DNA of 64,000 nt from Escherichia phage VEc25: sequence record MW175414.1. The stretch is one strand, 5' to 3'. Both the position numbers and the translations under genes were made by a program. This document shows, piece after piece, positions 25,968 through 26,470 of the stretch (within the stretch, counting starts at the first letter, position 1; every line of letters starts with the position of its first letter). The notes beneath the pieces were generated by a model. It worked only from the letters and a program-made list of their open reading frames with translations. It did no database searches and was not told the origin of the DNA.

Positions 25968-26039
25968 AGTGAACACACTATAGAACCTCCCAGCTTCCTC
26001 CAGATGTACGGCAATACATTAGCTGGTAGTGTGTTCACT
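25968..26039. repeat. 13-bp perfect inverted repeat (long hairpin) enclosing 46 nt
   Basis: AGTGAACACACTA (25968-25980) pairs with TAGTGTGTTCACT (26027-26039); inner CCAGCT/AGCTGG stem as well. Confidence 0.6.
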
Positions 26040-26122
26040 GATAGGTTGTACTATCACAGTCCAGACAATATCTGCGTGACTTAAAAAACAGATGGAGCCA
26101 GGTGGAATCCCTGGCAATTAAT

Positions 26123-26188
26123 TCCGGTGTAGGTACTAGTGTTGTGCACGACATGAGTGTTCTGGTTCGAGTCCAGACGCCGGAACCA
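26123..26188 (+). pseudogene. Truncated tRNA-like element (probable tRNA pseudogene)
   Basis: Canonical T arm TCTGG-TTCGAGT-CCAGA and 7-bp acceptor TCCGGTG/CGCCGGA with encoded CCA, but only 29 nt between them, too short for D plus anticodon arms. Confidence 0.3.
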
Positions 26189-26192
26189 ATTT

Positions 26193-26293
26193 GAAAGAAC
26201 TCTTATTTTGGTTACCGCAAAAGAAGTGAAAAATGTTGTGGAAAACTACTTCCCAATTAGGTTCGAATCCTAAACCAGAGTAAGAGTTCTTTC
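26193..26293. repeat. 13-bp perfect inverted repeat enclosing a 75-nt tRNA-like element
   Basis: GAAAGAACTCTTA (26193-26205) pairs with TAAGAGTTCTTTC (26281-26293). Confidence 0.6.
26206..26280 (+). ncRNA. tRNA-sized element with canonical acceptor and T arm but degenerate D/anticodon arms
   Basis: Acceptor TTTTGGT/ACCAGAG (two G-U pairs); T arm TTAGG-TTCGAAT-CCTAA; body lacks D-loop GG and no 5-bp/7-nt anticodon hairpin is found. Confidence 0.25.
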
Positions 26294-26307
26294 GAATTGA
26301 AGATTTA

Positions 26308-26381
26308 CAGGATATAGCTCAGTTTGGTAGAGCGTCTGCTTTGGGAGCAGAGTGTCGTAGGTTCGAATCCTGCTATCCTGA
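26308..26381 (+). tRNA. tRNA-Pro (anticodon TGG)
   Basis: Acceptor CAGGATA/TATCCTG; D arm GCTC-AGTTTGGTAGA-GAGC; anticodon stem TCTGC/GCAGA with loop TTTGGGA; T arm GTAGG-TTCGAAT-CCTGC; CCA encoded. Confidence 0.85.
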
Positions 26382-26386
26382 CCAAA

Positions 26387-26470
26387 TTAGTGCTCTGGTA
26401 TATTACTTTTAACCCCTAGGTTATGCCACAGTAATACAACAGATTGGGTCATCTGAAACCAGAGCACTAA
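26387..26470. repeat. 13-bp perfect inverted repeat enclosing 58 nt
   Basis: TTAGTGCTCTGGT (26387-26399) pairs with ACCAGAGCACTAA (26458-26470). Confidence 0.6.

What the first reader, a model, noticed from the sequence alone, without database searches (positions are those of the whole stretch)
25968..26470. Three 13-bp perfect inverted repeats interleaved with the tRNA genes
Three long, perfect, unrelated-in-sequence hairpin stems enclose 46-75 nt each: 25968-25980/26027-26039, 26193-26205/26281-26293 and 26387-26399/26458-26470. They sit directly after tRNA-Thr, around a tRNA-like element and directly after tRNA-Pro. Perfect 13-bp stems are unlikely by chance in ~500 nt and have no T-run, so they are not simple terminators. 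They could be RNase III-type processing sites for a polycistronic tRNA precursor, stabilising hairpins, or remnants of miniature mobile elements.
Basis: seen in the sequence. Interest (0 to 1): 0.6.

Follow-up and report, generated by a model that had tools for sequence, protein, structure and literature searches.

The report
Closing stems of phage small RNAs
The three perfect inverted repeats are real and are the base-paired closing stems of three separate small structured RNAs packed between the tRNA genes of a phage N4-type genome; two belong to conserved RNA families that no database describes and whose function is unknown.

Summary
The window is an Escherichia phage N4-type genome (99.9% to vB_Eco_Jura). 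The three 13-bp perfect inverted repeats sit exactly where reported. Only four such repeats occur in 64 kb (0.25 expected), and three are here. They extend to helices of 22, 27 and 13 pairs. Mismatches are G·U far more often than A·C, so the helices act in + strand RNA, inside one transcript that ends at a terminator at 26831-26860.

Each helix closes a discrete module set 0-8 nt from neighbouring tRNAs.
- Helix 2 closes a Y-shaped, tRNA-like RNA with a T-arm. It is conserved in N4-like phages and a T4-like Yersinia phage (11 of 25 pairs covary).
- Helix 1 belongs to a hairpin family with a constant helix and at least nine unrelated apexes (7 of 20 pairs covary).
- Helix 3 is shared only with phage Pollock.

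None matches Rfam, tRNA, YrlA or T4 RNAC/RNAD models. Terminator, MITE and N4 hairpin-promoter readings fail.

Most likely the helices delimit and protect small stable RNAs cut from the tRNA precursor. RNase III cleavage is possible for the two long helices but untested. What the RNAs do is unknown.

The parts
25706..25955 (+). tRNA-Asn (25706-25780), tRNA-Ser (25786-25875) and tRNA-Thr (25880-25955), the head of the RNA operon
   Evidence: ARAGORN; Rfam tRNA 50-78 bits
25957..26050 (+). Element 1: long hairpin RNA. Closing helix 25957-25980/26027-26050 (perfect core 25968-25980/26027-26039); apex 25981-26026. Member of a constant-helix, variable-apex hairpin family
   Evidence: z -6.1; 90% paired, 7/20 pairs change on both sides; 26040 G/A keeps the pair
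26056..26188 (+). Module A: 60-nt motif (26058-26116) found in many unrelated phages, followed by a D-armless tRNA-like element with encoded CCA (26124-26188, annotated 'tRNA-Undet' in Jura, SPSP and AL25)
   Evidence: no Rfam hit
26187..26299 (+). Element 2 ('module B'): Y-shaped tRNA-like RNA. Closing helix 26187-26213/26273-26299 (perfect core 26193-26205/26281-26293); 6-bp stem 26223-26228/26247-26252 with a conserved 18-nt loop; T-arm-like hairpin 26257-26273 (UUAGG-UUCGAAU-CCUAA)
   Evidence: z -9.1; 11/25 closing pairs change on both sides, 92.8% paired; slid controls 35-50%
26308..26384 (+). tRNA-Pro(UGG)
26387..26470 (+). Element 3: Y-shaped 84-nt RNA. Perfect 13-bp closing helix 26387-26399/26458-26470, a 7-bp arm and a 5-bp arm next to the 3' strand
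   Evidence: z -5.2; 91.6% identical copy in phage Pollock; the C-to-U change in the 3' arm gives G·U
26479..26579 (+). Module C: conserved ~100-nt RNA closed by GUGGGAUG/CAUCCCAC. The closing stem covaries in Gamaleyaviruses. Also present inside the tRNA array of Klebsiella phage KaOmega
26589..26685 (+). Module E: tRNA-like element (closing helix UGAACCA/UGGUUCA, T-arm-like hairpin 26661-26677), shared with Pollock
26689..26830 (+). Module F: last non-coding segment, about 77% conserved in G7C-like phages
26831..26866 (+). Intrinsic terminator that ends the RNA operon (12-bp stem plus T-run)
   Evidence: annotated as a terminator in Jura

Best explanation
The three inverted repeats are RNA helices. 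Each pairs the 5' and 3' ends of one discrete, independently folding small RNA. These RNAs are co-transcribed with the phage tRNAs as a single transcript that runs from about 25700 to the terminator at 26831-26860. The modules are packed like tRNAs, with 0-8-nt AU-rich spacers (CCA-AAUU) on either side.

Inferred mechanism: host endonucleases that mature tRNA precursors cut in the spacers. RNase E would cut at the AAUU spacers and RNase P at the 5' end of the next tRNA. Exonucleases then trim back to the closing helix. The helix locks both termini, keeps each module's fold apart from its neighbours and lets the excised RNA accumulate as a stable species, as T4 RNAC and RNAD do in that phage's tRNA cluster. 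The two long helices (22 and 27 pairs) are also long enough to be RNase III substrates.

Shown here: the helices exist, they are selected at the RNA level on the + strand, they covary, and they close conserved, horizontally shuffled modules that lie in the tRNA regions of other phages. Inferred only: the processing route, stable accumulation, and any function of the released RNAs. Elements 2 and 3 are Y-shaped, D-armless tRNA look-alikes whose 'acceptor' ends are sealed. A role as non-chargeable tRNA mimics is therefore conceivable but untested.
For: Three of the four perfect inverted repeats of at least 13 bp in 64 kb lie here, against 0.25 expected. Fold z-scores are -5 to -9.

Element 2 has 10 distinct homologues from Enquatrovirus, Gamaleyavirus, Pylasvirus, Salmonella and Klebsiella N4-like phages and the T4-like Yersinia phage TG1. 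All fold the same way. Of its 25 closing pairs, 11 change on both sides and 92.8% of cells are paired, against 35-50% when partners are slid.

The element 1 helix family has 15 sequences. They are 90% paired, 7 of 20 pairs change on both sides, and slid controls give 32-56%.

In the closing helices G·U pairs number 47 and A·C 1x1 mismatches 3. All polymorphisms among N4-type phages that fall in stems keep pairing or fall at a recurrent mismatch position.

In other phages the modules lie among tRNA genes or in the non-coding tract beside them, on the same strand. Pollock joins element 3 directly to module E and skips module C, which shows the modules are separate units. There is a single terminator at the end and none inside. 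Precedent: T4 RNAC and RNAD are small RNAs from the T4 tRNA region with unknown roles (PMC3014915; PMC9697503).
Against: There are no transcript or end-mapping data for N4 in the searchable literature, so excision and stability are inferred. No sigma-70 promoter passed the scan; a TTGTAA-18-TATAAC match at about 25667-25696 was seen only by eye. Element 3 has only one diverged homologue, and two substitutions weaken its inner stem in Pollock. The apex of element 1 is not conserved at all between related phages. That could mean the helix alone matters, or that element 1 is a relic. A 13-bp helix is short for RNase III.
Confidence: 0.6

Rival explanations
1. The hairpins are purely RNase III processing signals for the tRNA precursor. 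The double-stranded stems are cut to separate the tRNAs, and what they enclose has no function of its own.
For: Helices 1 and 2 have 22 and 27 pairs, about two helical turns or more. Helix length is held at 21-27 pairs in the element-2 family and 16-22 pairs in the element-1 family. A 1x1 pyrimidine mismatch recurs 6-9 bp from the base. The apex of element 1 is hypervariable while its helix is constant. From memory, not checked here: T4 species 1 RNA is cut by RNase III in vitro.
Against: The interior of element 2 is more conserved than its helix; the 18-nt loop and the T-arm are nearly invariant across 10 homologues. Element 3 has only 13 pairs. E. coli tRNA operons are normally matured by RNase E and RNase P without RNase III (established knowledge), and every tRNA here is followed by an RNase E-like CCA-AAUU spacer.
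Confidence: 0.2
2. The elements are decaying relics of tRNA or tmRNA-like genes, kept only by the short evolutionary distances sampled, and have no present function.
For: Element 2 and modules A and E carry T-arm-like hairpins but fail the tRNA models. In most relatives the element-1-type hairpin lies directly upstream of a tmRNA-like tag ORF that the N4 window lacks. The tract is a mosaic of pieces that differ between phages.
Against: Compensatory double changes hold 20-27-bp helices across distant phage groups, including a T4-like myovirus. Mismatches are G·U, as expected for selection on RNA. The element 2 core is about 85% conserved between phages that otherwise share little DNA.
Confidence: 0.12
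3. They are DNA-level elements: miniature inverted-repeat mobile elements, cruciforms, N4 virion-RNA-polymerase hairpin promoters or replication signals.
For: Perfect inverted repeats with variable interiors, spread in a mosaic pattern among unrelated phages.
Against: Each is single-copy in the window and has no flanking target-site duplication. The G·U excess over A·C (47 to 3) is meaningless for DNA and points to the + strand RNA. The arms covary rather than being conserved as transposase sites. No apex is the reverse complement of another, so there is no sign of an invertible switch. N4 virion-RNA-polymerase promoters have 5-7-bp stems with 3-nt loops (established knowledge), not 13-27-bp stems around 46-75 nt.
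Confidence: 0.04

Closest known systems
Phage T4 small stable RNAs RNAC (species 1) and RNAD (species 2)
   Same: Small non-coding RNAs of 119-139 nt encoded next to tRNA genes in a phage tRNA cluster and co-oriented with them. RNAC also carries a T-arm-like hairpin (GGGUUCGAAUCCC) and long helices. Their function is still unknown (PMC3014915, PMC9697503).
   Different: No sequence or structure homology. The covariance model of element 2 finds nothing in the T4 tRNA locus, and BLAST finds only the tRNAs. The N4 elements are closed by much longer terminal helices.
Bacterial and phage Y RNA-like RNAs (YrlA, Rfam RF02553)
   Same: A long helix formed by the 5' and 3' ends, plus a tRNA-like domain with a T-arm; non-chargeable tRNA mimicry (PMC4201824).
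   Different: The Rfam YrlA model scores 17.3 bits against a threshold of 69, and only over the T-arm. There is no D-arm and no GNCGAAN0-1G Rsr-binding motif in the helix. The closing helix sits in the acceptor position rather than the anticodon position. No Ro60/Rsr gene lies nearby.
RNase III processing stems (rRNA operon leader-trailer stems, T7 R1.1-type sites)
   Same: Helices of about 20-27 bp formed by sequences that flank a functional RNA within a polycistronic precursor. A conserved small internal mismatch is present.
   Different: Cleavage is untested. Element 3 is too short. The neighbouring tRNAs carry RNase E-type spacers.
tmRNA tRNA-like domain (standard and permuted)
   Same: The T-loop UUCAACU of most element-2 homologues equals the E. 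coli tmRNA T-loop. In Pylas-like and most Gamaleyavirus phages the long helix lies directly 5' of a tmRNA-like tag ORF (ANDDVVLMAA).
   Different: The order of T-arm and linker is tRNA-like, not permuted. There is no G3·U70 pair and no free CCA end. The tag ORF is absent from this window. In P1 and DS8 the tag-ORF element occurs without the helix, so the helix is an independent module.

Membership tests
tRNA (Rfam RF00005 / ARAGORN) | Cloverleaf with D-arm, 7-nt anticodon loop, 7-bp acceptor stem and a free 3' end; model score at least 29 bits | tested here: not met
   Only the four canonical tRNAs score. No tRNA hit at E<=10 over 25957-26050, 26187-26299 or 26387-26470, and ARAGORN finds none. 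Element 2 keeps only the T-arm.
YrlA / bacterial Y RNA (RF02553) | Covariance-model score at least 69 bits | tested here: not met
   17.3 bits over model positions 31-81 at 26257-26333, which is only the T-arm plus the start of tRNA-Pro.
YrlA / bacterial Y RNA (RF02553) | Rsr-binding helix motif GNCGAAN0-1G, and a gene encoded next to a Ro60/Rsr orthologue (PMC4201824) | tested here: not met
   The motif is absent from the 5' arms CAAUUUGAAAGAACUCUUAUUUUGGUU, UACAGGUUAUUAGUGAACACACUA and UUAGUGCUCUGGU. The neighbours are ssb, gp46, gp47, gp48, gp49 and vRNAP.
T4 RNAC/RNAD | Sequence or structure homology to T4 rnaC or rnaD | tested here: not met
   Model R1 built from element 2 gives no hit in the T4 locus L034 at E<=10. 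BLAST of the tract against L034 finds only tRNAs.
T4 RNAC/RNAD | Small non-coding RNA gene inside a phage tRNA cluster, same strand | tested here: met
   homologues also lie in the tRNA regions of other phages.
T4 RNAC/RNAD | Accumulates as a stable processed RNA in infected cells | not testable with these tools
   No N4 transcript data found.
RNase III processing site | Double-stranded RNA of about 20 bp or more | tested here: inconclusive
   Element 1 has 22 pairs and element 2 has 27 pairs, but element 3 has only 13.
RNase III processing site | Staggered cleavage by RNase III | not testable with these tools
   Needs an in-vitro cleavage assay or comparison with an rnc mutant.
Intrinsic terminator | GC-rich stem followed by a T-run | tested here: not met
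   The scan finds a + strand terminator after the tRNAs only at 26831-26860. No T-run follows the three stems.
MITE / miniature mobile element | Terminal inverted repeats with target-site duplication and several copies | tested here: not met
   Single copy of each arm pair in 64 kb and no flanking direct repeat. No copies in 5,426 E. coli genomes.
N4 virion RNA polymerase hairpin promoter | 5-7-bp stem with a 3-nt loop in single-stranded template DNA (established knowledge) | tested here: not met
   The stems are 13-27 bp and enclose 46-75 nt.
tmRNA (standard or permuted) | Tag reading frame; tRNA-like domain with G3·U70 and a CCA end; Rfam score at least 47 bits | tested here: not met
   There is no tag ORF in this tract of the window; the only pattern match, at 20904, lies in an unrelated longer open frame. 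No tmRNA hit in the window tract. The element 2 acceptor-like helix has U3·G70 and is sealed.

The most novel reading that the evidence does not exclude
The N4 tRNA operon and its counterparts in many enterobacterial phages (N4-like phages, Yersinia T4-like phages, T1-like phages, P1, rV5-like phages) are exchangeable 'RNA islands'. They would hold a toolkit of sealed-end tRNA mimics, constant-helix hairpins with swappable apexes and, in relatives, a tmRNA-like tag-ORF RNA. On this reading the modules act on the host translation or RNA-surveillance machinery, or as decoys for tRNA-targeting defence nucleases. The hypervariable apex of the element-1 family would then reflect an arms race.
Probability: 0.15. 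Interest if true: 0.8.

Novelty: new variant of a known kind. Interest (0 to 1): 0.55.

Why it matters
N4 is a classic model phage, yet about 900 nt next to its tRNA genes is annotated as empty or as stray hypothetical ORFs. This work shows the tract is a string of at least seven structured RNA modules. Two of them now have covariation-supported structures and homologues in distant phage groups, and none is in Rfam. That gives concrete candidates, with coordinates, structures and a covariance model, for a question that has stayed open since T4 RNAC and RNAD were found: what do the non-tRNA RNAs in phage tRNA clusters do? It also shows that annotation pipelines miss them or call them 'tRNA-Undet' or 'hypothetical protein'.

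Tried and rejected
- Rfam at permissive thresholds, on the tract and on seven related loci: only tRNAs and sub-threshold noise.
- Covariance model of element 2 against the T4 rnaC/rnaD locus: no hit.
- YrlA, tRNA and tmRNA membership: all failed.
- MITE reading: single copy and no target-site duplication.
- Host origin: only tRNA-Pro matches E. coli genomes.
- Antisense targets of the three interiors in the phage genome: longest matches are 11-13 nt, at chance level, and the 13-mer is just another T-arm.
- Invertible-switch idea for the variable apex: no apex is the reverse complement of another.
- More homologues of element 3: the viral scan found only N4 and Pollock. Two metagenome scans found nothing, or unrelated perfect palindromes.
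- Helix 1 as the P2 helix of a permuted tmRNA: rejected. The T-arm and linker are in tRNA-like order, and P1 and DS8 carry the tag-ORF element without the helix.
- Small ORFs in the tract: a 2-nt indel in the element 2 loop shifts the frame between N4 and G7C or Moonfish, so they are not coding.
- Anti-Shine-Dalgarno look-alike CACCUCCUUA at 26577-26586: not conserved in relatives.
- Literature search for N4 transcript maps: none found.

Full report
**Identity and context.** The window is an Escherichia phage N4-type genome. The tract 25600-26900 is 99.9% identical to vB_Eco_Jura and 99.1% to N4. It lies between the ssb-gp46-gp47 genes and gp48-gp49. The virion RNA polymerase gene is on the opposite strand at 27777-38297. 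ARAGORN and Rfam find tRNA-Asn, tRNA-Ser and tRNA-Thr at 25706-25955 and tRNA-Pro at 26308-26384. The only intrinsic terminator after the tRNAs is at 26831-26860. About 1.15 kb therefore appears to be one non-coding transcription unit.

**The observation.** Two extend further: 25957-25980/26027-26050 (24 nt) and 26187-26213/26273-26299 (27 nt). The whole window holds only four perfect inverted repeats of at least 13 bp with loops up to 120 nt, and three are here. Random sequences of the same composition give 0.25 per 64 kb. As RNA the three elements fold with z-scores of -6.1, -9.1 and -5.2.

**RNA or DNA, and which strand.** In the closing helices of these elements and their homologues I counted 47 G·U pairs against 3 A·C 1x1 mismatches. 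G·U is tolerated only in RNA, and only on the + strand as written. Among six N4-type phages, substitutions that fall in stems behave as follows:
- 26040 G/A converts U·G to U-A.
- 26192 T/C converts U·G to C-G.
- 26143 and 26151 both keep their pairs.
- 26194 A/T falls at a recurrent 1x1 mismatch position.

The helices are therefore selected in the + strand transcript, which is the tRNA strand.

**Element 2 (26187-26299).** The interior is not a loop. It is a three-way junction made of:
- the 27-pair closing helix;
- an 11-nt linker;
- a 6-bp stem with a conserved 18-nt loop;
- a T-arm-like hairpin UUAGG-UUCGAAU-CCUAA, set directly against the 3' strand of the closing helix.

BLAST and a pattern scan of IMG/VR recovered homologues in Shigella phage Moonfish, G7C, Klebsiella phages Pylas and KpCHEMY26, Salmonella phage FSL SP-058, two uncultivated contigs and the T4-like Yersinia phage TG1. 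All ten distinct sequences fold the same way. On their alignment 11 of the 25 closing-helix pairs change on both sides and 92.8% of cells are paired. That falls to 35-50% when partners are slid by 1-3 columns. The inner stem shows an A-U to G-C swap. The TG1 helix has a largely different sequence but the same length. In Pylas and TG1 the element lies in the non-coding tract beside or between the tRNA genes, on the tRNA strand. It fails the tRNA model, and the YrlA model scores 17 bits against a threshold of 69. A covariance model built from it (R1) finds nothing in the T4 rnaC/rnaD locus. It is an undescribed tRNA-like RNA family whose 'acceptor' helix is extended and sealed.

**Element 1 (25957-26050).** Only N4-type phages share the whole element. 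Its helix, however, is homologous to a helix found in Gamaleyaviruses, KP8, IME11, several uncultivated contigs and, around the element-2 core, in Pylas-like phages: CCUAUCAA-U-GAGUACAUUAG ... CUAGUGUACUC-U-UUGAUAG. Fifteen helices aligned arm to arm are 90% paired, and 7 of 20 pairs change on both sides. Slid controls give 32-56%. The N4 version differs from the consensus by three full compensatory swaps. A 1x1 mismatch, mostly U·U, at helix position 9 is kept in 13 of 15 sequences. What the helix encloses falls into at least nine unrelated classes of 36-83 nt, and none is the reverse complement of another. One apex class also occurs on its own in Vi01-like phages. Element 1 is therefore a hairpin with a constant helix and an exchangeable apex.

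**Element 3 (26387-26470).** This is an 84-nt Y-shaped fold closed by the perfect 13-bp helix. The only diverged copy found is in phage Pollock (91.6%). There a C-to-U change in the 3' arm gives G·U, a C-to-U change in a hairpin also gives G·U, and two changes weaken the inner 7-bp stem. Pollock joins element 3 directly to module E and skips module C, which shows that these are separable units. Viral and metagenome scans found no further homologues. Comparative support for this element is the weakest of the three.

**The rest of the tract is built the same way.**
- Module A (26056-26188) joins a 60-nt motif to a D-armless tRNA-like element that carries an encoded CCA. The motif occurs, with compensatory changes, in unrelated phages such as DS8, SopranoGao, a Klebsiella prophage-like phage and FH3. 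Some records annotate the tRNA-like part as tRNA-Undet.
- Module C (26479-26579) has a covarying closing stem. It also sits between tRNA-Glu and tRNA-Asp in the rV5-like phage KaOmega.
- Module E (26589-26685) is another tRNA-like element, shared with Pollock.

All modules are separated from tRNAs and from each other by 0-8 nt. Each tRNA, and the module A tRNA-like element, is followed by CCA-AAU or CCA-AAUU.

**Most likely mechanism.** Shown: the helices are RNA structures that pair the two ends of discrete modules in a polycistronic tRNA transcript. Inferred: the precursor is cut in the AU-rich spacers by RNase E, and by RNase P at tRNA 5' ends. Exonucleases then trim back to the closing helices. 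The helices protect both termini and keep each module's fold separate, so the modules accumulate as small stable RNAs. T4 RNAC and RNAD, small RNAs of unknown role from the T4 tRNA region, are the precedent (PMC3014915; PMC9697503). An N4-like Pseudomonas phage, LUZ7, also makes abundant processed small RNAs from an intergenic region (PMC9163698). Helices 1 and 2 are long enough for RNase III, but helix 3 is not. No tool here can test cleavage. The function of the released RNAs is unknown. Sealed, non-chargeable tRNA mimicry is a reasonable lead for elements 2 and 3.

**Rejected readings.**
- Terminators: no T-run.
- MITEs: single copy, no target-site duplication, absent from E. coli genomes.
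- N4 hairpin promoters: wrong geometry.
- Coding sequence: frame-shifting indels between homologues.
- Antisense regulators of phage genes: matches at chance level only.
- Helix 1 as the P2 helix of a permuted tmRNA. In most relatives the element-1-type helix lies directly 5' of a tmRNA-like tag ORF, ANDDVVLMAA, with synonymous third-position variation. That segment scores 32.7 bits on Rfam tmRNA_permuted, below the threshold of 47. But P1 and DS8 carry the tag-ORF element without the helix. The N4 window lacks the ORF. The tRNA-like apex is also in the wrong order for a permuted tmRNA.

**Verdict.** It is not a new kind of system, because phage tRNA clusters are known to carry extra small RNAs. 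These are, however, new covariation-supported families in a model phage, with an unusual constant-helix, variable-apex member. Function remains open.

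Noticed in passing
L002:1248-1330 (PBM-3), L007:1310-1385 (Pylas), L035:640-715 (DS8), L079:1490-1580 (P1); absent from the window: An unannotated tmRNA-like segment, ...AUAAAU-GCA AAC GAU GAU GUU GUU CUG AUG GCN GCN UAA (tag ANDDVVLMAA; ANDDLMMVAA in P1), with synonymous third-position variation. Rfam tmRNA_permuted gives 32.7 bits (E 5e-5, below threshold) and ARAGORN calls nothing. The 265-nt query (element-1-type hairpin plus this segment) matched 456 phage records; the listed hits that cover the tag segment include P1 (in the leader of the ban operon), T1-like phages and N4-like phages. 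No matching tRNA-like domain with G3·U70 was found.
   Followed up: partly
window 26058-26116: A 60-nt motif, AGUCCAGACAAUAUCUGCGUGACUUAAAAAACAGAUGGAGCCAGGUGGAAUCCCUGGC, is conserved at 85-95% in unrelated phages (DS8, Segz_1, SopranoGao, ST147-VIM1phi7.2, FH3). It shows compensatory changes in two small stems and is not in Rfam.
   Followed up: partly
window 26124-26188: A D-armless tRNA-like element with a 7-bp acceptor stem, a T-arm and an encoded ACCA. It is annotated 'tRNA-Undet' in Jura, SPSP and AL25 but is missed by ARAGORN and the Rfam tRNA model. Polymorphisms 26143 and 26151 keep their pairs.
   Followed up: partly
window 26479-26579; L039:1201-1294: Module C is a ~100-nt conserved RNA with a covarying closing stem. 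It is also embedded between tRNA-Glu and tRNA-Asp in the rV5-like Klebsiella phage KaOmega and in Enterobacter and Pectobacterium myophages.
   Followed up: partly
L035:1056-1137, L007:720-840 and 940-1035, L079:1665-1750: A second constant-helix family, ACAACAGGUAAGAGCAUUG...CAGUGCUCUUACCGUUGUGG, encloses different interiors in DS8, Pylas (two copies, one with a T-arm), SopranoGao and P1.
   Followed up: no
window 26577-26586: CACCUCCUUA is identical, from memory, to the 3' end of E. coli 16S rRNA (the anti-Shine-Dalgarno sequence). It follows the closing stem of module C, and CCUCC occurs twice in the apex of element 1. It is not conserved in PBM-3 or AN24P2.
   Followed up: partly
window 40831-40843 / 40881-40893: The only other perfect 13-bp inverted repeat in the window pairs the 5' leader with the first codons of a - strand gene. 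The Shine-Dalgarno sequence (rc of 40855-40860) and the ATG fall in the loop, which looks like a translational control hairpin.
   Followed up: partly
L009:1171-1500 (Pollock NC_027381): The record lists its four tRNA genes on the strand opposite to the one on which ARAGORN and Rfam find them. This is probably an annotation strand error.
   Followed up: no
L001:1501-1733 (Jura) vs window 25600-25705: vB_Eco_Jura carries about 127 extra bases upstream of tRNA-Asn compared with this window.
   Followed up: no
window 25562-25593 and about 25667-25696: A hairpin after the small ORF 25390-25554 may end the upstream unit. A TTGTAA-18-TATAAC promoter-like match, seen by eye, sits about 10 nt before tRNA-Asn; the automatic scan did not call it.
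   Followed up: no
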